A stretch of 45,417 bases of DNA from a virus (IMGVR_UViG_2675903468_000006); one strand, 5' to 3'. Counted from the first letter of the stretch, positions 1-26,140 are shown. Numbers and translations are program-made. Notes: generated by a model from the sequence alone, not told the origin.

Positions 1-675
1 ATGTGTGGACGTTTCTCACAATCAATGACCCGCGATGACTATCTGGCTCTGCTGGCTGATGAATCCGATCGCGATATTCCCTATGACCCTGAACCAATCG
101 GGCGATTCAACGTGGCGCCAGGTACCAAAGTCCTGCTGCTGAGCGAGCGCGACGAGCAACTGCATCTGGATCCGGTATTCTGGGGATATGCGCCCGAATG
201 GTGGGATAAACCTCCGCTGATTAATGCGCGCGTTGAGACTGCGGCCACCAGCAGAATGTTCAAGCCCCTGTGGCAGCATGGCCGGGCTATCGTGTTTGCG
301 GATGGTTGGTTTGAGTGGAAGAAGGAAGGCGACAAGAAGCAGCCATATTTCATTCACCGGGACGACGGACAGCCGATATTCATGGCGGCGATCGGCAGCA
401 TACCGTTCGAACGCGGAGATGATGCCGAGGGATTCCTGATTGTGACGTCAGCAGCTGATAAGGGACTGGTAGACATTCACGACCGTCGCCCTCTCGTCCT
501 GTCGCCTGAAGCTGCGCGAGAATGGATGCGACAGGATATAGGCGGGAAGGAAGCCGGAGAGATAGCAGACGACGGGGCGGTGCCGGCAGATAAATTTATC
601 TGGCACGCCGTGACACGCGCCGTTGGCAATGTGAAAAATCAGGGACCTGAGATGATCGAGCCAGTCATGGATTAA
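1..675 (+). CDS. yedK: SOS response-associated peptidase (SRAP/YedK family, abasic-site processing)
   Basis: N-terminus MCGRF with Cys2, about 224 aa, overall SRAP-like sequence. Confidence 0.8.
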   Translation: MCGRFSQSMTRDDYLALLADESDRDIPYDPEPIGRFNVAPGTKVLLLSERDEQLHLDPVFWGYAPEWWDKPPLINARVETAATSRMFKPLWQHGRAIVFADGWFEWKKEGDKKQPYFIHRDDGQPIFMAAIGSIPFERGDDAEGFLIVTSAADKGLVDIHDRRPLVLSPEAAREWMRQDIGGKEAGEIADDGAVPADKFIWHAVTRAVGNVKNQGPEMIEPVMD

Positions 676-1043
676 ATCGTCGGGTAGCTATCATCGCTCA
701 ACGCCCGGTTGATGAAGTACGTTACACGACCAATCACTTCCACCTCTTCCAGCGCGCTCCCCTCTATCGCCTCGCCATCTTCAGATATCAGTGCTTTACC
801 TGCCAGTTTTACAAACTGCACTTCACCACCAGCAAGAACGGCGAGTGTATCTCCCTGTCGCGCATTCAGCGACACGTCGATAACCGCGTATCCCTCTGAC
901 GTTTCCAGGATTCGACTATTCATTGATATCCCGCAAAACATATCGACTGTTAAGCGCCTTGAAAGATAATCAGCAGCCGGTGATGGAAATCCCATGTCAT
1001 AGCCCTCCGTTAGGGTTATAGAGCATGAACAAACGCTCCTCAC
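672..1043 (-). CDS. UmuD-like S24 peptidase (LexA/UmuD autoproteolytic family)
   Basis: GFPSPAADY motif as in UmuD, then GISM (cf. GDSM Ser) and downstream Lys; stop overlaps yedK stop on the opposite strand. Confidence 0.55.
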   Translation of the reverse strand: MRSVCSCSITLTEGYDMGFPSPAADYLSRRLTVDMFCGISMNSRILETSEGYAVIDVSLNARQGDTLAVLAGGEVQFVKLAGKALISEDGEAIEGSALEEVEVIGRVTYFINRALSDDSYPTI

Positions 1044-1278
1044 CTTCCGTAGGGGAAATATCCTTGAACGTGCTTATGCTGGCCTCTATCCATGCATTTG
1101 CATCCCGCAAGGAGAAATCCCAGTTCACCTTTTTCAGTTCCCGCACAAAATCAACTGTTCGTAGTGTCCTGCGACCGCTGGGCTCAACAACTACAGCAGA
1201 CCTAAATGCGGCCTCAATGTCATAACGACGCGGCATAAGCCCTCCACACAAAATACTGTTCATATATACAGTATTCAT
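997..1278 (-). CDS. Hypothetical protein upstream of and overlapping the UmuD-like gene
   Basis: 93-aa ORF overlapping the next gene by 47 nt in another frame; no recognisable domain. Confidence 0.3.
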   Translation of the reverse strand: MNTVYMNSILCGGLMPRRYDIEAAFRSAVVVEPSGRRTLRTVDFVRELKKVNWDFSLRDANAWIEASISTFKDISPTEGEERLFMLYNPNGGL

Positions 1279-1525
1279 TCATGATGGATACAGATCAAGC
1301 ACTGTTGGACAGGCATCTATTAACTTGTTGTTTTATTTGTGTATATAGTTATAAGTATGGAAATGTACTGAACTCATAGACCGTATTGTCGGTTATGAAT
1401 GTTCTTGATGACATTCATGTGGTGATAACTTTGAGTGTTCATAAGTGGACAAAATAATATAAAATCTCTATATTGCAATAACAAAATATATACACCAACA
1501 ATATAATTAGAAAGGCTTAACAATA

Positions 1526-2587
1526 ATGTTAAAACAGCGAAATTTAGGAATTGAGGCTCTAAGGATTTTTAGCTTCATAATGGTAGTTACTATACACACA
1601 GCTCCTGAATACAGTATTGGTGGAAATAATAATATTACTGCGTTAATATTGCAGTCGTTATCAAGGGGTGGATTTATATGCTTTTTTATTATAAGTGGAT
1701 ACTTTGCCCTTAACGATAACATTAAAGACATTAAGAAATACTACTATAATAAGATGATAACTATAGTTTTCCCATTTATTATATATGCTTATATACACTA
1801 CTTCATGGTTCATAATAATTTCGGCACATCATTAGAATTATGGAAGAATTTCATTTCTTTTGATGAACTAAAATCTTTTGTTAACGCGATCATGATTGGT
1901 CCATCTTTCAATGGTCCAAAGTTCATGTCTCTGCATTTCTGGTTTGTATACTGGATAGTCGGAGCATTTATTGTTTCTCCTTTCATTGCGTACATAGTAA
2001 ACCTTATACCTTCAGAAAAAAGGATGAGTGCAATATTTGTTTTAATCTCCTTAAATATGTTCCACTTGTACATAACGCGATATATCCCAAAGGCGAACAT
2101 TATATTCTTACCTTACATTGTTAATGGTTGGTTTTTGTATTTTCTAATTGGTGGCTTATTGAATGGCATTAAAGTGACGAATCCAATTAAAACATCAATG
2201 CTTATGTTCATGTCTGGTTATATTCTTACCATCATAATAACTGTATTAAATTATAATGTATTAGGCATTAAAAAAATGCCATACGGCGAAGATATTAATA
2301 TGATATTAATGGCTACAGGTCTATTTATTATGTTTTATAATTCTAACATTAAATGGCCAGCTAGTTTAACTCTGGTAATATCACGACATTCATACTCAAT
2401 GTATTTATGCCACGTATTTATACTTTATTTTATTTCAGGTTTACTGAAGCCAGTGACTGACATCTATTTTATAAATATAATATTTAAAATATTAACAGTT
2501 TCAATACTGTCGTTCATTTTTGCTTACTTGGTTGACACATTTATAGTATTTAAAGCAACCAGATTTTTTAAACAACTATACAAATAA
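1526..2587 (+). CDS. Acyltransferase-3 family membrane protein (OafA/Oac-like O-antigen O-acetyltransferase)
   Basis: Multi-pass hydrophobic 353-aa protein; N-terminal R...H motif (EALRIF...TIHTAP); strongly AT-rich; SD agaaagg. Confidence 0.75.
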   Translation: MLKQRNLGIEALRIFSFIMVVTIHTAPEYSIGGNNNITALILQSLSRGGFICFFIISGYFALNDNIKDIKKYYYNKMITIVFPFIIYAYIHYFMVHNNFGTSLELWKNFISFDELKSFVNAIMIGPSFNGPKFMSLHFWFVYWIVGAFIVSPFIAYIVNLIPSEKRMSAIFVLISLNMFHLYITRYIPKANIIFLPYIVNGWFLYFLIGGLLNGIKVTNPIKTSMLMFMSGYILTIIITVLNYNVLGIKKMPYGEDINMILMATGLFIMFYNSNIKWPASLTLVISRHSYSMYLCHVFILYFISGLLKPVTDIYFINIIFKILTVSILSFIFAYLVDTFIVFKATRFFKQLYK

Positions 2588-2595
2588 GAACTATC

Positions 2596-2632
2596 TACTC
2601 GCCAACTCCATCCAGTGAAGTTGGCGAGTTAT
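2596..2632. terminator. Hairpin between convergent acyltransferase and tailspike genes, T-run on plus strand
   Basis: About 10-bp inverted repeat CTCGCCAACT...AGTTGGCGAG followed by ttatttatt. Confidence 0.5.
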
Positions 2633-4759
2633 TTATTGAAGGTATCCTTTTTTGTTTTTCAGCATACGTGTCAGTGCTTCAGCCCACGCAGCCATGATAC
2701 TAATTTGTCCATCAACTGTTGGGTGAATGTTATCCCCATACCAACCAAGATTAGCCCCAAAATTCCTGCGCATATCAGCAAATTCATAGCCATTCTGGAT
2801 GCAAAACTTTTTCAATGCATGAGTATACTTTGCATGTGCAGCATAGTTTGAAGTGGTAACACCGTGAATGCCACTATTTGCCTCGGTAGTAAATATGGGG
2901 AAAATGCCGAACACAGGAATTGCACCAGCGGAAACTATTTTATTAGCGATTGTCTGCAGGTTAGTCGTGTACTGTGCTACAGCCACGCCACCCTGCTGAT
3001 CATTAGTTCCGATCATGCACAGAACTACTTTATGAGGCGAGTAATCAGTGGGCGAACCGTCTCCAGTAGCCCAATACGCTGAACTGGTTCCGCTGACAGC
3101 ATAGTTGGTGATACTTACTTTACCAATATTATCTGAGTTTTGAATAAATGATGGTAACAATCTAACTATGTCATTACTACACCAAGCTCCATAACTAATT
3201 GAGTCGCCGATAACACCGATACTTAGAGGCCGCTTAACTCTTAGTTTAAAATTTGTTGTTTTCAGACAATCAAGGAATGTTACACCTGCAGCATCACCTG
3301 CCTGAGATAATATAAAACCAGCATTAACAACAGTCCCATTGAATCTGTACACAGGCAATCCATTTAGTACAAATGTCATAACAGAATCGTTTACAACGAA
3401 CCCTAGGTTTACCTGCTGATTACTAATCCAGCCATATGCGCCACCATTTGGCAATGTGTATTCTTCATTTATTGTTTGTGAACCTGAGAAATTAAATCCT
3501 TTAACAGACAGTTTCCCTGATGCTACAGTTATTGAAGCAAAAACAACGGCACTTGATGTTTTTATAAAAACACCGCATGACTCAGCCTGTCCACTTGTAA
3601 ACGCATTAATCTCATAAAGAGATCCATTCTCTGGCGCTGTTGGATATAGAACTTGCGGGTTTGCTGCGAAATCAGATGACCACGTCACAGTGTTTGATGT
3701 TACGGTTCCTGTCCCTGATGCGCTAATGTCTCCTGTTGAAACATTATAGATGGTCTGATTCCAGGTTGTAAGATTCACAATAGAAGCCGACTCATTGAGC
3801 GACATATTAACTAAACCAGGAGCAACATTGTACAACTCCTTCAAGTCAATAAATGTATTTGCTGGCTTAATTAAAGTTGTTCCGCTTACAGGATTTTCAA
3901 TTCTTAAATTAGTTAATAAGCGTAAATCTTTCGTGTTAGGATTTTCGTCAACTTTAAAGGTCACTCCCTCATCGGCATGGATTTTAACTCCAGACAGATC
4001 AGGTCTTGCCCCTGAATAAAGTACGACACCAGCTCCTGAGAAATATAAAACCTCGTCTTTAGCGGACAGATAGTTACGGGCGTTATTAAATTGCGTTACC
4101 CCGTCATTAAACCCATCATATTTAATACCCCATTGGCGAGCCTCCTTTGGAGTTTCAGCTTCTACGTACAGGCCGTTAGAAATGACGAAAATGCTACCAC
4201 CATCCTCGGTCGCTGAGCCGCTATGTACTACACCGTAATTACCACCACCATCACCAACGGAGTAATAACCAAGCCATCTGACATGATCACCTTCCTTTAG
4301 ATTACCTGATCTCATATCAGAAACCGTCTGAAATACCCGAGAATACTGGTCGTTTAGGTATCCGTTGTTCAGGTCTGATCGTAGAGAAGCATCACCGACT
4401 CCAACCCACGCCCCCGGCCCTACACCGCCAGTTGAGTCTGGCGTTGAACCAGGGGGGACTACTTTGGGGAATTCACCATCCCATCTGTAGTATTCCCCGT
4501 TACTCTCCCAGCGCAGGCACTCGTTAACAAGGCTAATGGTGCTGCCAGCTTCAAAAGAATCCTTCGTGATATAGCCATAATTCACTATTGCCTGATTTGC
4601 ATCGTAATTAATACCGGCAATTGTACGATGCTCATCGCCAAATCTGTCAACATAAACATGGTCTTCCGAGGTCACGAACTCATCAATCTTTCCGGCGTTA
4701 AACTTCAGATCGCGTGGTGATTCGCTTGGGACAGACAAATTGGTAGGTTGCGTAGCCAT
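2633..4759 (-). CDS. Tailspike/tail fibre with C-terminal SGNH (GDSL) esterase domain
   Basis: C-terminal GDSISYG, GTND and DNIHPT blocks; fibre-like N-terminus; last gene of tail operon; AT-richer than upstream tail genes. Confidence 0.75.
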   Translation of the reverse strand: MATQPTNLSVPSESPRDLKFNAGKIDEFVTSEDHVYVDRFGDEHRTIAGINYDANQAIVNYGYITKDSFEAGSTISLVNECLRWESNGEYYRWDGEFPKVVPPGSTPDSTGGVGPGAWVGVGDASLRSDLNNGYLNDQYSRVFQTVSDMRSGNLKEGDHVRWLGYYSVGDGGGNYGVVHSGSATEDGGSIFVISNGLYVEAETPKEARQWGIKYDGFNDGVTQFNNARNYLSAKDEVLYFSGAGVVLYSGARPDLSGVKIHADEGVTFKVDENPNTKDLRLLTNLRIENPVSGTTLIKPANTFIDLKELYNVAPGLVNMSLNESASIVNLTTWNQTIYNVSTGDISASGTGTVTSNTVTWSSDFAANPQVLYPTAPENGSLYEINAFTSGQAESCGVFIKTSSAVVFASITVASGKLSVKGFNFSGSQTINEEYTLPNGGAYGWISNQQVNLGFVVNDSVMTFVLNGLPVYRFNGTVVNAGFILSQAGDAAGVTFLDCLKTTNFKLRVKRPLSIGVIGDSISYGAWCSNDIVRLLPSFIQNSDNIGKVSITNYAVSGTSSAYWATGDGSPTDYSPHKVVLCMIGTNDQQGGVAVAQYTTNLQTIANKIVSAGAIPVFGIFPIFTTEANSGIHGVTTSNYAAHAKYTHALKKFCIQNGYEFADMRRNFGANLGWYGDNIHPTVDGQISIMAAWAEALTRMLKNKKGYLQ

Positions 4760-4764
4760 ATTGA

Positions 4765-4800
4765 TTCCATAAAAAAACCCGGCACGGTGGCCGGGTTTGG
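4765..4800 (-). terminator. Intrinsic terminator after the J-like gene
   Basis: Minus-strand CCCGGC-loop-GCCGGG hairpin followed by a T-run; tailspike ATG about 14 nt beyond. Confidence 0.5.
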
Positions 4801-4817: not shown

Positions 4818-7295
4818 TTATTGGTAGATTGCGTCGCTGTATTCCGCGACGGTCAGAGATACCGTGTTATCTGTGTTCGGTTTGATGCTGTTGACCGTCC
4901 ATAGCTGACTGTCCAGTTCCTCCACTGTCGCAATGAGGTAGCGCGACGGGAGCTGTACAGTGTCTCCGTTCCATATGTTGAGCTGAATGTCGGGTATTGC
5001 CGCGGTGAAGCCGTACTTCGTGTCACCGCGGGCCGTCGCCGGATAGCGCAGCGTCGGATTACCCAGGCTGTCGGTCACCAGCACGTACATATCCCCGGAA
5101 AAGGTGAGCGGCTCGCTGGTATCGAAGTTATTCCCGGCGCGGCCGGTGATGTAACCCTGTTGCTGGTTGCTGTCGTAGATATCAGGCATCTGAATGACGC
5201 TGCCAACCTGGATAATACCGTCCTCAAACACTTTTGCGTTCATCTTCACCCGGGAGTAGATTAGGCGCTTCGTTTCGCGCAGCGCGCGTTCGCGCGCCTG
5301 ATACTCGTTACGGAAGCCGACAATTTCGATCTTATTCGGGTTCTCCGCTTCCTGCTCGACGATAACGCCGTTCAGAACACGGTAGTTGATGTACGTCTTG
5401 TTGTTCGTGGTCGGGTGAACGTAGGACACCTGCACGCCGTCGTAACCGCCTGGAAGAGTAGCCTCGTACGTCATTTTGTACTCGTCCGTCTTCATGTTGG
5501 CCCGGTTGAATACGGCCGCCGGGTAGCCAACTTTCTGGTCCCTGGTGAACGTGAGCACACCGTCGTCCCAGTACGCCACCACAGATGCCGCATTGCAGAT
5601 CGCCTGCACGCGGTCTCCCAGAGAGTCGTTCTCATCATCAAAGGTATAGTCGAAGTAACCAAGGCGCTCATCAGGCAGGCTTTCGGCGATCGAATACAAC
5701 CCATACAGGTCAATGCTGCTTACGGGCTGCTCACCCATAATCAGCCATGTGTGAGCCACTGCATCAGCGAATGAACGCGACGGACGCAGCGTGTAATCTA
5801 CCGTCTGCGTGTCCAGATCGTACGTGATGGTGTGCCGCGTTACCAGGGCGTTGTATTTGCGGTCGCGGCTGCCCAGCGCGTTCTCTGTAGCCCTAACCTT
5901 CACGCGCACCAGCGTATCGGTTGGATGGACAACGTTTGTTCGCACGTTTACGGCGTGGATTTCCTCAAGTTTGAGTATCGACGCATCACCAGAGTTATCG
6001 GTGCGCTGCAGGTTAATGGCGTACTTCCCGAAGCCGCCAGTCGGCACTATCTTGTCGGTCCGATAGAATGTCTCGCTATCCTGCTTGTGCCAGGTTGTCT
6101 GCTTGAACACCAGCGTCTGCTGAGTGCCAGGGATCATGTTGTAGTCGTCATCAATTTTCCAAAGCACCACCTTCCAGTTGGTCTGCTTCTTCGGACCGAG
6201 GCTACTTTGGGTATGGATCCACAACTGCGTTGATTCAACCGGAGAAAAGAACGGACCTACGACCAGCGCTTCGTTGTCGTTCAGCACGAACTTCGTCGTG
6301 TTGATCGTTGCGGTAGCGGGGATATCTGGCGGGCCATCCAGGTCGCCCATGGTGAAGGTGTACCAGCGGACTGGGTTTATCACCGCGCCGTCGTTTGTCT
6401 CTACAGCTGAAACAAGCGTGCCGGAGAACGTGGCGTCAGTAGTTACCGAACCAGAGGCAGTCGCGTAAGTGACGTTTATGTCGAACGAGACGGCATGCGG
6501 CAATACCAGGCCCATGAAATAGTCAAATTCCGCCTGTTTAACGATTTTCACCGCTATCTGACCGCCGGCATACGTGCCGCTGACCACTGTGTTGGCTGTA
6601 GCGGTTTCAACAGGGAACGATTCGCCCTGGTTCGCACCCGGGACTTCCTGCCCATCGACGTCATCGAAGCTGTAGCCTTCGTTAATCGACGGGATTACCT
6701 CGCCAGGCTGAATGAACTGGTATTCGGCTCCGGCCATGCTTCCAAGGCTCGATTCTGAGTAGCGCACAGACTCATAATTGTACTTGCCAATCCCGATACA
6801 CATCCATTCCGTCACGTACTTCTTGCCACCGTCTCGCACGCCAGTGCTGATGTACTCAAACAGTGATTCCTGAATCAGGTCTGGGAAAGAACGCACCTGC
6901 CCGTATATGTCCGGTTTGGCTTTATAGACGCGCGCGGTGTTTGTCTGACCGGTCAGGCTATTGTTTGGCGAGTCGACAGTGTTACCACCGGTATTTGCGA
7001 TTGCCGGCTTAGGCGCCAGAAAAGAAAATACAGACCCGACAACTTTGAAAATCGGGCTCAGGATGTCACTGACAATGCCCTTTGGCTGGTCGAAAATCTG
7101 GATGTTGTCCAGTTCGCTCAGCTCAAACGCCAGCTCGTCATCATCACAAAGCTTTACGCCGTTCCGGACAATCAGCAGATCGCGGTGAAAGGTAGCGTCA
7201 TTTGCCACCAGCCAGTCATAAAAAAGGGTGCCGTTTGGCACCCTGTAGCGTTCTTTTGGCGTCCCCGGGAAACGCTGAAGCTCAATCAACGCCAT
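4818..7295 (-). CDS. Tail tip / central fibre protein (host specificity protein J-like)
   Basis: 825 aa, follows the NlpC/P60 tail gene, at the distal end of the tail module. Confidence 0.55.
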   Translation of the reverse strand: MALIELQRFPGTPKERYRVPNGTLFYDWLVANDATFHRDLLIVRNGVKLCDDDELAFELSELDNIQIFDQPKGIVSDILSPIFKVVGSVFSFLAPKPAIANTGGNTVDSPNNSLTGQTNTARVYKAKPDIYGQVRSFPDLIQESLFEYISTGVRDGGKKYVTEWMCIGIGKYNYESVRYSESSLGSMAGAEYQFIQPGEVIPSINEGYSFDDVDGQEVPGANQGESFPVETATANTVVSGTYAGGQIAVKIVKQAEFDYFMGLVLPHAVSFDINVTYATASGSVTTDATFSGTLVSAVETNDGAVINPVRWYTFTMGDLDGPPDIPATATINTTKFVLNDNEALVVGPFFSPVESTQLWIHTQSSLGPKKQTNWKVVLWKIDDDYNMIPGTQQTLVFKQTTWHKQDSETFYRTDKIVPTGGFGKYAINLQRTDNSGDASILKLEEIHAVNVRTNVVHPTDTLVRVKVRATENALGSRDRKYNALVTRHTITYDLDTQTVDYTLRPSRSFADAVAHTWLIMGEQPVSSIDLYGLYSIAESLPDERLGYFDYTFDDENDSLGDRVQAICNAASVVAYWDDGVLTFTRDQKVGYPAAVFNRANMKTDEYKMTYEATLPGGYDGVQVSYVHPTTNNKTYINYRVLNGVIVEQEAENPNKIEIVGFRNEYQARERALRETKRLIYSRVKMNAKVFEDGIIQVGSVIQMPDIYDSNQQQGYITGRAGNNFDTSEPLTFSGDMYVLVTDSLGNPTLRYPATARGDTKYGFTAAIPDIQLNIWNGDTVQLPSRYLIATVEELDSQLWTVNSIKPNTDNTVSLTVAEYSDAIYQ

Positions 7296-26064: not shown

Positions 26065-26140
26065 TGGTGCTGATTGACGGAGTTGAACCGCCGACATCCT
26101 GCTTACAAGGCAGGCGCTCTACCTACTGAGCTAAATCAGC
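26065..26140 (-). tRNA. tRNA-Thr (anticodon UGU), phage-borne
   Basis: 76-nt cloverleaf folded by hand: 7-bp acceptor stem, D-arm, anticodon loop CUUGUAA, T-loop TTCAACT, encoded CCA. Confidence 0.8.

What the first reader, a model, noticed from the sequence alone, without database searches (positions are those of the whole stretch)
1279..4759. Convergent receptor-modification pair: O-acyltransferase gene facing a tailspike with SGNH esterase
Seen in sequence: an acyltransferase-3 membrane protein gene (1526..2587, plus) converges on a tailspike gene (2633..4759, minus) whose C-terminus has SGNH blocks GDSISYG, GTND and DNIHPT. Both are AT-richer than the upstream tail genes and share one hairpin terminator. 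Established knowledge: Oac/OafA-type enzymes acetylate O-antigen for serotype conversion, and some tailspikes carry SGNH esterases that deacetylate polysaccharide receptors. Inference: one cassette encoding both receptor recognition by deacetylation and lysogen surface acetylation.
Basis: partly seen in the sequence, partly recalled or inferred. Interest (0 to 1): 0.6.

Follow-up and report, generated by a model that had tools for sequence, protein, structure and literature searches.

The report
Prophage O-acetyltransferase facing an esterase tailspike
An E. coli prophage carries a surface-sugar acetylating gene back-to-back with an acetyl-removing tailspike gene, but comparison with about 100 related prophages shows this is the ordinary "tailspike plus O-antigen-modification gene" layout known from phage Sf6, not a specially matched pair.

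Summary
ORF 1526..2587(+) is an AT3-only acyltransferase. ORF 2633..4759(-) is a tailspike with a conserved N-terminal anchor and a C-terminal SGNH esterase whose catalytic blocks are intact. The two genes converge on one strong hairpin (2597..2629) and are AT-richer than the tail genes.

The "one cassette" inference is not supported.
- The AT3's nearest relatives (46-48% identity) sit in chromosomal O-antigen clusters (manB-AT3-gnd), with no spike nearby.
- The spike's receptor-binding module recurs at 78-88% identity in a different E. coli prophage type, without an adjacent AT3, and DNA homology stops at the spike stop codon.
- In 100 related prophage loci, the slot after the spike holds AT3/MBOAT acyltransferases, gtrABC, other glycan-modification genes, or no recognised module.
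- Acyltransferases follow esterase spikes in 13 of 23 units and other spikes in 21 of 50 (OR 1.8, p=0.32).
- One esterase-spike type pairs with different AT3s, with gtrABC, or with nothing.

The layout matches Sf6 gene 14 / terminator / oac / int. Most likely the AT3 is a lysogenic-conversion O-antigen O-acetyltransferase and the spike a deacetylating receptor-binding protein, each acquired independently. Whether the AT3 writes the acetyl that the spike removes cannot be tested with sequence data. This is a new member of a known kind, of modest interest.

The parts
1279..1525 (+). AT-rich (about 30% GC) intergenic region upstream of the acyltransferase. It is the presumed site of the gene's own promoter. 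Promoter-like hexamers lie at 1446-1474 (TGGACA-17-TATATT) and 1478-1507 (ATAACA-18-TATAAT), and a purine-rich stretch (AGAAAGG, read from the sequence) sits just upstream of the ATG.
   Evidence: Sequence and consensus scan. The number of promoter-like sites in the region is not above shuffled expectation, so this evidence is weak. The region is identical in the near-identical IMG/VR copy L063.
1526..2587 (+). AT3-only membrane O-acyltransferase gene (353 aa), predicted to be an O-antigen O-acetyltransferase and a lysogenic-conversion moron.
   Evidence: Pfam PF01757 E=2.7e-28 and PHROG phrog_3333 'O-acetyltransferase' E=1e-16. R13-X10-H24 and F53/I56-S57-G58 are invariant in an alignment that includes Sf6 Oac. 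Relatives at 46-48% identity lie in manB-AT3-gnd O-antigen clusters. GC is 0.29.
2597..2629 (.). Stable hairpin in the 45-nt gap between the two stop codons. It is an intrinsic terminator for the acyltransferase (T-rich tail on the + strand) and possibly bidirectional.
   Evidence: dG -19.5 (+) and -23.0 (-) kcal/mol, z about -5.6 on each strand. Comparable hairpins occur in the gaps of nearly all convergent AT3-spike pairs of the lineage, and Sf6 has an annotated oac terminator in the same place.
2633..4759 (-). Tailspike / receptor-binding protein gene (708 aa).
4364..4759 (-). Spike aa 1-132: the conserved N-terminal anchor (includes Tail_spike_N) that attaches the spike to this siphophage's tail tip. 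It is shared by all 135 spike-bearing loci that were collected.
   Evidence: Pfam PF18668. It matches solved structure 9occ_G gp13 over aa 1-132 at E=7.8e-49. Identity to the 47 species-level and 80 IMG/VR loci is 41-99%.
3260..4363 (-). Spike aa 133-500: central domains, ending in a beta-sandwich (about aa 324-500) that precedes the esterase, laid out like a carbohydrate-binding module.
   Evidence: In the AF2 model this part scores mostly 80-95 pLDDT, with dips near aa 133-140 and 300-320. Foldseek matches YxiM (2o14) and Ape1 (8gld), both beta-sandwich plus SGNH proteins, and a galectin (3vv1).
2645..3259 (-). Spike aa 501-705: SGNH/GDSL esterase domain with Ser520, Gly557, Asn586, Asp676 and His679.
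   Evidence: Pfam PF13472 E=1e-18. The catalytic blocks are at least 90% conserved in 30 homologues. Foldseek matches SGNH esterases with target-normalised TM-scores of 0.6-0.77 (Axe2 3w7v, TesA 1u8u) and also G7C gp63.1 4qnl.
4775..4798 (-). Terminator-like hairpin followed by T7, lying between the tipJ stop and the spike start. It marks the upstream boundary of the exchangeable spike module.
   Evidence: It is conserved in 58 of 68 representative loci, with compensatory stem changes.
4818..7295 (-). TipJ-family host-specificity tail-tip protein (context: the conserved backbone gene upstream of the spike).
   Evidence: NCBIfam NF040662 E=1.5e-145. About 84% DNA identity to Enterobacter phage CobraSix and relatives.

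Best explanation
The window is a CobraSix-like temperate siphophage integrated in E. coli. Downstream of the tail-tip gene tipJ lies an exchangeable tailspike gene. Immediately after it, close to the end of the prophage, lies a slot that this phage lineage fills with surface-polysaccharide modification genes.

In this prophage the slot holds an AT3-only O-acyltransferase. Inferred: it is transcribed in the lysogen from its own AT-rich promoter region and stops at the hairpin, and it O-acetylates the host O-antigen. That would be lysogenic conversion, which changes serotype and hinders adsorption of O-antigen-dependent phages, probably including this phage's own kind.

The spike is a virion protein made late in infection. 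Its conserved N-terminus plugs into the tail tip. Its C-terminal beta-sandwich plus SGNH domain is a predicted carbohydrate O-acetylesterase. Inferred, by analogy with G7C gp63.1: it binds and deacetylates an O-acetylated surface polysaccharide during adsorption.

The two genes were acquired independently and are neighbours because of where the slot lies, not because they form a co-inherited write/erase unit. Shown here: gene identities, motif integrity, the hairpin, the independent distribution of the two modules, the generality of the slot, and the lack of significant enrichment. Inferred: expression timing, O-antigen as the substrate of both enzymes, and the exclusion function.
For: Identities.

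AT3 substrate context: P0002, P0003 and P0006 (46-48% identity) all lie between manB and gnd in O-antigen clusters. No deposited phage genome encodes a relative.

Independent mobility of the spike module: relatives at 78-88% identity (P0016-P0018) occur in a different E. coli prophage type, where the spike is followed by holin and endolysin genes and no AT3 lies within 7 kb either side. Relatives at 34-51% identity occur in another siphophage, a Firmicutes-type phage and a Vibrio myophage, none with an adjacent AT3. DNA homology (about 83%) ends at the spike stop codon, window position 2630, and so excludes the hairpin and the AT3. GC is 0.29 for the AT3 against 0.41 for the spike module.

General slot: in 100 usable loci the gene(s) after the spike are an AT3, an MBOAT, gtrABC, WzyE-like, RgpF, or GNAT plus deacetylase.

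Association test: esterase spikes have 13 acyltransferase, 4 gtr and 6 none; other spikes have 21, 14 and 15. OR is 1.8 and Fisher p=0.32. Pfam validated the spike classes.

No one-to-one pairing: one esterase-spike cluster pairs with two unrelated AT3s, with gtrABC, or with nothing.

Precedent: Sf6 has tailspike, terminator, convergent oac with its own promoter, then int/attP. Oac, OafB(BTP1) and the phiV10 Oac homologue are phage- or prophage-encoded O-antigen acetyltransferases, and blocking of the phage's own tailspike is described for Sf6 and BTP1 (PMC9558356, read).
Against: No experiment or expression data exist for this element. The promoter-like matches are not above chance.

The trend in the association test goes in the direction of coupling (57% vs 42%, and p=0.08 under a different clustering threshold). 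The sample is small and is dereplicated only by spike cluster, so a weak real enrichment cannot be excluded.

For an esterase spike, adding acetyl groups is not an obvious way to block the spike. The exclusion logic borrowed from glycosidase spikes may therefore not transfer.

The AT3 lacks the Oac-type RxxR loop motif. Its substrate could also be another glycan.

An AT3 elsewhere in the prophages that carry P0016-P0018 was not excluded beyond +/-7 kb.
Confidence: 0.65

Rival explanations
1. Matched write/erase pair. The AT3 installs the very O-acetyl group that the spike esterase recognises and removes. Phages of this type would then keep privileged access to, or release from, cells converted by the same AT3, while other O-antigen-dependent phages are shut out.
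For: Both enzymes plausibly act on acetyl esters of the same surface polymer. Acyltransferases are numerically more frequent next to esterase spikes: 13/23 vs 21/50, and 15/23 vs 23/56 at 80% clustering, p=0.08. In a post-hoc subset of five loci whose SGNH domain is C-terminal like the window's, all five have an acyltransferase next door, four AT3 and one non-homologous MBOAT.
Against: The enrichment is not significant, and the 5/5 subset was defined after seeing the data. An enlarged sample then found the same spike type (L065) without the MBOAT. The same esterase-spike clusters also occur with gtrABC or with nothing. The window's spike module travels without an AT3 in six other contexts, and its homology stops at the stop codon. 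The AT3's relatives are chromosomal and have no spike. Creating one's own receptor on an immune lysogen would waste progeny virions.
Confidence: 0.12
2. The AT3 does not act on O-antigen. It acts on another envelope glycan such as enterobacterial common antigen, colanic acid or capsule, or peptidoglycan. It would then be functionally unrelated to phage adsorption through O-antigen.
For: AT3 proteins modify many substrates, including ECA (WecH), peptidoglycan (OatA) and exopolysaccharides (PMC9558356). Sequence identity to characterised O-antigen acetylases is low: 21% over 98 aa to Sf6 Oac. There is no NCBIfam equivalog.
Against: All three looked-up relatives at 46-48% identity are embedded in O-antigen clusters between manB and gnd. 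The slot otherwise holds gtrABC and other O-antigen modifiers. PHROG annotates the family as O-acetyltransferase.
Confidence: 0.1
3. The spike's SGNH domain targets a capsule or another non-O-antigen polysaccharide, or serves mainly as a binding module. In that case the spike and the AT3 act on different polymers.
For: The same module (44% identity) occurs in a phage with a Gram-positive-type endolysin, where no O-antigen exists. SGNH receptor-binding proteins of Klebsiella prophages are linked to capsule types (PMC13123978). The window's spike lacks the G7C-specific domains (compare).
Against: The catalytic Ser, Gly, Asn, Asp and His positions are each conserved in at least 90% of 30 homologues, which argues for activity. 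In E. coli, spikes with this anchor sit beside O-antigen modifiers. G7C gp63.1 shows that O-antigen deacetylation by an SGNH spike occurs in E. coli (PMC10743462).
Confidence: 0.13

Closest known systems
Shigella phage Sf6 gene 14 (tailspike) / gene 15 (oac) / int-attP region
   Same: A tailspike gene and an AT3-only O-antigen acetylase gene converge across a short gap that holds a terminator (33 bp in Sf6, 45 nt here). The acetylase has its own promoter region, and the pair lies next to the integrase/att end of the temperate phage. Core AT3 motifs are shared: R-X10-H and FFxISG.
   Different: Sf6 is a P22-like podovirus whose spike is an endorhamnosidase. Here the backbone is a CobraSix-like siphophage and the spike carries an SGNH esterase. 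The two AT3 proteins are only about 21% identical over 98 aa. The window's AT3 lacks the RxxR loop motif and is closest to chromosomal O-antigen-cluster genes.
E. coli phage G7C tailspike gp63.1 (PDB 4qnl), an O-antigen deacetylase
   Same: It shares the Tail_spike_N-type N-terminal region (aa 57-136 against 4qnl 91-169, E=5e-14) and an SGNH esterase domain (Foldseek E=3e-8). It is the model for adsorption by deacetylation without cutting the backbone (PMC10743462).
   Different: There is no detectable sequence similarity in the esterase part. The gp63.1-specific domains Gp63_3rd_G7C and G7C_GBD are absent from the window's spike but present in other spikes of this lineage, such as L011 and L091. 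The SGNH domain is C-terminal here and follows a beta-sandwich. G7C is a virulent N4-like phage with no conversion gene.
P22-type gtrABC and BTP1 GtrC/OafB conversion modules next to the tailspike gene
   Same: The genomic logic is the same: an O-antigen modification module expressed from the prophage, located beside the tailspike gene near att. In BTP1 it protects lysogens against the phage's own spike (PMC9558356). Many relatives of this prophage carry gtrABC in exactly this slot.
   Different: gtrABC glucosylates. OafB is a fused AT3-SGNH protein, whereas the window's enzyme is AT3-only and has no partner SGNH gene.
Chromosomal O-antigen-cluster AT3 genes of Citrobacter, Enterobacter and Leclercia (P0002-P0008)
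   Same: These are the closest sequence relatives (46-48% identity over the full length). They have the same length and motifs and a similarly low GC content.
   Different: They sit between manB and gnd in the chromosomal O-antigen locus, with no phage genes around them. The window's copy is prophage-borne.
SGNH-domain receptor-binding proteins of Klebsiella prophages (PLoS Biol 2026, PMC13123978)
   Same: They are temperate-phage receptor-binding proteins with SGNH esterase domains. The same prophage populations often encode acetyltransferases, and the authors suggest that prophages both remove and add acetyl groups on surface glycans.
   Different: That work concerns capsules and a genome-wide association. 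In the passages I read it does not analyse adjacency or coupling between the esterase and the acetyltransferase.

Membership tests
AT3 (Acyl_transf_3, PF01757) AT3-only O-antigen O-acetyltransferases (Oac/WbaK type) | Full-length match to the AT3 profile above the curated threshold | tested here: met
   99.4 bits against a cutoff of 31, covering profile positions 2-324 of 326. PHROG O-acetyltransferase family match at E=1e-16.
AT3 (Acyl_transf_3, PF01757) AT3-only O-antigen O-acetyltransferases (Oac/WbaK type) | R/K-X10-H motif in TM1 and the FFxISG motif | tested here: met
   R13, H24, F53, I56, S57 and G58 are invariant in a 14-sequence alignment that includes Sf6 Oac.
AT3 (Acyl_transf_3, PF01757) AT3-only O-antigen O-acetyltransferases (Oac/WbaK type) | RxxR motif in the first cytoplasmic loop, essential in OacA | tested here: not met
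   The aligned segment reads KKYYYNK, against AKRARRIF in Oac and RRVVR / RRVFR in two other prophage AT3s. It is basic but is not RxxR.
AT3 (Acyl_transf_3, PF01757) AT3-only O-antigen O-acetyltransferases (Oac/WbaK type) | AT3-only architecture: no fused SGNH domain and a multi-pass membrane protein of about 330-400 aa | tested here: met
   353 aa with a single Pfam domain. A crude hydropathy scan finds 8 strongly hydrophobic segments. No free-standing SGNH gene lies nearby.
AT3 (Acyl_transf_3, PF01757) AT3-only O-antigen O-acetyltransferases (Oac/WbaK type) | O-acetylates the O-antigen repeat unit | not testable with these tools
   Only contextual support: three relatives lie inside O-antigen clusters.
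SGNH esterase tailspikes (G7C gp63.1-like O-antigen deacetylases) | Tail_spike_N-type anchor followed by an SGNH fold with conserved blocks I, II, III and V (Ser, Gly, Asn, Asp/His) | tested here: met
SGNH esterase tailspikes (G7C gp63.1-like O-antigen deacetylases) | gp63.1-specific domains (Gp63_3rd_G7C, G7C_GBD) or sequence homology to the gp63.1 esterase part | tested here: not met
   There are no such Pfam hits. The phmmer match to 4qnl is confined to aa 57-136. Other spikes of the lineage do have these domains. The window's spike works like gp63.1 but is not a member of that subfamily.
SGNH esterase tailspikes (G7C gp63.1-like O-antigen deacetylases) | Deacetylase activity on the host polysaccharide that is required for infection | not testable with these tools
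   Needs an enzyme assay and adsorption tests.
Tailspike-adjacent serotype-conversion module of temperate phages (Sf6 oac, P22 gtrABC) | Modification gene(s) directly beside the tailspike gene, near the att/int end of the prophage | tested here: met
   The AT3 lies 46 nt from the spike and about 1.8 kb from the host junction. The integrase is at the other prophage end, so it becomes adjacent in the circular form. The slot is used in the same way in most of the 100 loci.
Tailspike-adjacent serotype-conversion module of temperate phages (Sf6 oac, P22 gtrABC) | A separate transcription unit (own promoter, terminator, usually convergent) with atypical base composition | tested here: inconclusive
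   The convergent orientation, hairpin terminator and GC of 0.29 are shown. In the lineage, 26 of 34 acyltransferases are convergent. The promoter is supported only by consensus matches that are not above chance.
Tailspike-adjacent serotype-conversion module of temperate phages (Sf6 oac, P22 gtrABC) | The modification blocks adsorption of the phage itself | not testable with these tools
   Needs adsorption or efficiency-of-plating tests on a cured host expressing the AT3.

The most novel reading that the evidence does not exclude
The acyltransferase and the esterase spike form a lock-and-key pair. The prophage acetylates the O-antigen at a site that shields the cell from phages with glycan-cleaving spikes, while its own virions, and only relatives carrying a matching esterase, can strip exactly that acetyl group. 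The lineage would thereby keep exclusive access to, and clean release from, converted cells. The weak excess of acyltransferases next to esterase spikes (57% vs 42%) would then be the first trace of a general write/erase strategy in temperate phages.
Probability: 0.1. Interest if true: 0.7.

Novelty: new member of a known kind. Interest (0 to 1): 0.3.

Why it matters
As it stands this is a fresh example of a textbook arrangement, a serotype-converting gene beside the tailspike gene, in a little-studied group of temperate siphophages of Enterobacterales. It adds an AT3 subfamily previously seen only in chromosomal O-antigen clusters, and an esterase receptor-binding module that moves between very different phages.

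The useful by-product is the survey. In this lineage, one slot bounded by terminators collects acyltransferases (AT3, AT3-SGNH, MBOAT), gtrABC, a Wzy-like polymerase, RgpF and other glycan modifiers next to freely exchangeable spikes. That makes it a convenient natural system for studying how receptor-binding and receptor-modifying genes are shuffled.

If the acetyl written by the AT3 proved to be the one the spike erases, it would be a new kind of phage strategy. The present evidence makes that unlikely.

Tried and rejected
1. An apparent 5/5 association between window-type (C-terminal SGNH) spikes and acyltransferases, including one MBOAT, appeared in the first 47 loci. I rejected it as evidence. 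The subset was defined post hoc, its SGNH domains are only about 25% identical to each other, and the enlarged sample broke the pattern (L065).

2. My first local SGNH and AT3 profiles missed members (the L015 AT3, and the G7C-like spikes). I re-seeded them and validated the classes with Pfam. Three 'non-SGNH' spikes turned out to be SASA esterases and were reclassified.

3. I looked for an E. coli O-antigen cluster resembling the Citrobacter cluster that hosts the AT3 relatives, to guess the substrate backbone. Megablast found no match in 5,426 complete genomes.

4. I tried to use the near-identical IMG/VR copy L063 to assess selection. There are only 3 nucleotide differences, so it is uninformative.

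5. Dam/OxyR-type phase variation of the AT3, as in gtr and oafB: by eye, only one GATC lies in the 247-nt upstream region (sequence). I did not pursue it.

6. PADLOC found no defence-system match for the AT3, the spike or their small neighbours.

7. The AT3 has no sequence relative with a solved structure.

8. The epsilon15 esterase-tailspike preprint could not be opened, so only its title and abstract start were available.


Full report
**1. Observation**

- Pfam assigns the first ORF to Acyl_transf_3 (E=2.7e-28, almost the whole profile).
- Pfam assigns the second to Tail_spike_N (aa 63-123) plus Lipase_GDSL_2 (aa 516-685, E=1e-18).
- The quoted SGNH blocks are real. In an alignment of 30 homologues, G518-D519-S520, G557, G584-T585-N586-D587 and D676-N677-x-H679 are each at least 90% conserved.
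- GC falls from about 0.55 in the tail genes to 0.50 in the spike N-terminus, 0.41 in the rest of the spike and 0.29 in the acyltransferase.
- The 45-nt gap contains a hairpin at 2597..2629, with dG -19.5 and -23.0 kcal/mol on the two strands and z about -5.6.
- Only the + strand has a good T-rich tail after the hairpin. It is therefore first of all the acyltransferase's terminator.

**2. Where the window comes from**

- The exact acyltransferase and spike are found in an E. coli draft genome (GCA_001571665.1). There the element is inserted after yciC / an IspA-family gene, near the trp operon and ompW.
- The window starts at a phage SRAP gene (phrog_1599) and ends in a tyrosine integrase.
- The tail module is about 84% identical in DNA to Enterobacter phage CobraSix and relatives, which are temperate siphophages.
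- Only the tipJ-to-spike-N-terminus junction is conserved in other E. coli prophages. Downstream of it, those prophages carry many different receptor-binding parts.

**3. The acyltransferase**

- It is an AT3-only protein with the family's R-X10-H and FFxISG motifs, which are invariant even against Sf6 Oac. It lacks Oac's RxxR loop motif.
- It is only about 21% identical to Oac over 98 aa. It has no relative with a solved structure and none in 50,697 deposited phage genomes.
- Its family is small: 14 clusters, all from Enterobacterales or metagenomes.
- The three relatives I looked up (46-48% identity) all lie in the same place in chromosomal O-antigen loci: wzx ... GT ... manC-manB-AT3-gnd-ugd-wzz-his.
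- This is the strongest available evidence that the substrate is an O-antigen repeat unit. It also suggests the phage copy was captured from such a locus, and the 0.29 GC fits that origin.

**4. The spike**

- Residues 1-132 match the N-terminus of a solved siphophage tail protein (9occ gp13, E=8e-49). More weakly, they match the anchor regions of CBA120 tailspikes and G7C gp63.1.
- The AF2 model has a mean pLDDT of 79.8. Scores are high from residue 140 onwards, apart from a dip near residues 300-320.
- The model shows central domains, a beta-sandwich (about aa 324-500) and an SGNH domain (aa 501-705).
- Foldseek places the C-terminal half with carbohydrate and peptidoglycan O-acetylesterases that also combine a beta-sandwich with SGNH (YxiM 2o14, Ape1 8gld). 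It also matches Axe2, TesA and gp63.1 (4qnl).
- The spike lacks the gp63.1-specific Pfam domains, which other spikes of this lineage do carry.
- So it works like an esterase spike but is not a gp63.1 family member.

**5. Is it one cassette? Module histories**

- The receptor-binding part has relatives at 78-88% identity in E. coli (P0016-P0018). These sit in a different prophage type next to ppx. There the spike is followed by holins, a GH19 endolysin and the prophage end, and no acyltransferase lies within 7 kb on either side.
- DNA homology to those genes (about 83%) runs from inside the spike gene to window position 2630. It therefore stops at the stop codon and excludes the hairpin and the AT3.
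- More distant relatives (34-51% identity) are in another siphophage, in a phage with a Gram-positive-type endolysin, and in a Vibrio P2-like myophage. None has an adjacent AT3.
- The two genes therefore have separate histories.

**6. Is it one cassette? Lineage survey**

I anchored on the conserved spike N-terminus and collected 47 species-level genomic loci and 80 IMG/VR loci.

The position directly after the spike is a general glycan-modification slot. Its contents, confirmed by Pfam, are:
- gtrA/gtrB/gtrC trios, with Glucos_trans_II, DUF6056 or DUF6311 as the gtrC component;
- AT3, AT3-SGNH fusions, or AT3 plus a free-standing SGNH protein;
- MBOAT plus a partner of unknown family;
- a WzyE-like polymerase (CobraSix gp26);
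- RgpF;
- GNAT plus a polysaccharide deacetylase;
- or no recognised module.

I kept 100 usable loci and dereplicated them into 68 receptor-binding clusters. I validated the spike classes with Pfam: 14 of 16 SGNH representatives hit Lipase_GDSL_2, none of 52 others did, and three of those others were SASA esterases that I reclassified.

| Spike class | Acyltransferase | gtr | None |
|---|---|---|---|
| Esterase spikes | 13 | 4 | 6 |
| Other spikes | 21 | 14 | 15 |

The odds ratio is 1.8 and Fisher p=0.32. Before the SASA correction the values were p=0.19, or p=0.08 at 80% clustering.

Further points:
- The same esterase-spike cluster occurs with two unrelated AT3s, with gtrABC, or with nothing.
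- The MBOAT-linked spike type also occurs without the MBOAT.
- AT3s in the slot are extremely diverse: 33 clusters at 40% identity.
- Acyltransferases are mostly convergent with the spike (26 of 34), and nearly all convergent gaps hold a GC-rich hairpin.

**7. Comparison with what is known**

- Sf6 has exactly this architecture: tailspike gene 14, a 33-bp gap with an annotated oac terminator, convergent oac with its own promoter, then int and attP.
- The AT3 review describes Oac, OafB (BTP1) and the phiV10 Oac homologue as phage- or prophage-encoded O-antigen acetyltransferases. It states that in Sf6 and BTP1 the acetylation blocks the phage's own tailspike (PMC9558356).
- G7C gp63.1 shows that an SGNH spike can mediate infection purely by deacetylating O-antigen (PMC10743462).
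- A 2026 study shows that SGNH receptor-binding proteins are common in Klebsiella prophages and that those prophages often encode acetyltransferases (PMC13123978).
- What is particular here is the combination of an esterase spike with an acyltransferase. The survey shows that this combination is common (13 units) but not specific.

**8. Mechanism and verdict**

Most likely (about 0.65):
- The AT3 is a lysogenic-conversion O-antigen O-acetyltransferase expressed from the prophage.
- The spike is a virion esterase that binds and deacetylates an acetylated surface polysaccharide.
- They are neighbours because of the slot's position.

By the usual exclusion logic, the AT3 should acetylate a site different from the one the spike needs. 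This is inference only.

The rivals each stand at about 0.1: a true write/erase pair, an AT3 acting on another glycan, and a spike acting on a non-O-antigen polymer. Simple biochemical tests would separate them.

The finding is a correct observation with a partly correct interpretation. It is a new member of a known kind, of modest interest.

Noticed in passing
window 4775-4798 (- strand), between the tipJ stop (4818) and the spike start (4759): A GC-rich hairpin followed by T7 sits a few nucleotides (about 8) before the spike ATG. It is conserved in 58 of 68 representative loci, with compensatory stem changes (ACCCGGCC/GCCGGGT, GGCCAGCC/GCTGGCC, AGCCAGCC/GGTTGGCT). This suggests a real terminator or attenuator that brackets the exchangeable spike module inside the late operon.
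   Followed up: partly
L017 11418-13952, L067 and L084 (Ewingella and IMG/VR prophages): The slot after an SGNH spike holds an MBOAT O-acyltransferase (about 480 aa, Pfam E=1e-36) plus a 359-360-aa partner with no Pfam or PHROG match. This may be a phage-borne two-component O-acylation system not built on AT3.
   Followed up: partly
L003 2622-3920 (CobraSix gp26); L022 11023-12309; L019 11074-13172: The slot also holds other cargo: a WzyE-like O-antigen polymerase in phage CobraSix, an RgpF-like rhamnosyltransferase, and a GNAT acetyltransferase followed by a Polysacc_deac_1 deacetylase.
   Followed up: partly
window 1-1278: The left arm of the prophage carries an SRAP (YedK-like) gene, a UmuD-like S24 peptidase gene (phrog_3469) and a 93-aa gene (phrog_3893). 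It lacks the 423-aa UmuC-like polymerase gene that follows the UmuD-like gene in CobraSix and in many related loci. SRAP and UmuDC-like genes appear to be alternative DNA-damage cargo at this end.
   Followed up: no
L147 (metagenome scaffold) and L148 (Vibrio owensii): The spike's beta-sandwich plus SGNH module occurs at 44% identity in a phage with an Amidase_3/SH3_5 endolysin and a BhlA holin (Gram-positive type). It also occurs at 34% identity as the tail fibre of a Vibrio P2-like myophage. The esterase module is therefore exchanged across very distant phage groups.
   Followed up: partly
L002 256-6093 (E. coli XJ55 prophage): An IS5-family element (ISKpn26) is inserted between a free-standing 227-aa SGNH gene, which lies next to the SGNH spike, and the AT3. 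This possibly splits a two-gene AT3 plus SGNH acetylation module.
   Followed up: no
window 26065-26140 (- strand): A tRNA-Thr (anticodon TGT) gene lies inside the prophage.
   Followed up: no
L011, L069-L078, L091-L105 (spike genes): Many temperate siphophage spikes of this lineage carry the G7C gp63.1-specific domains (Gp63_3rd_G7C, G7C_GBD) together with SGNH. The deacetylase spike architecture of the virulent N4-like phage G7C is therefore also widespread in prophages, where it is paired with an AT3, with gtrABC or with nothing.
   Followed up: partly
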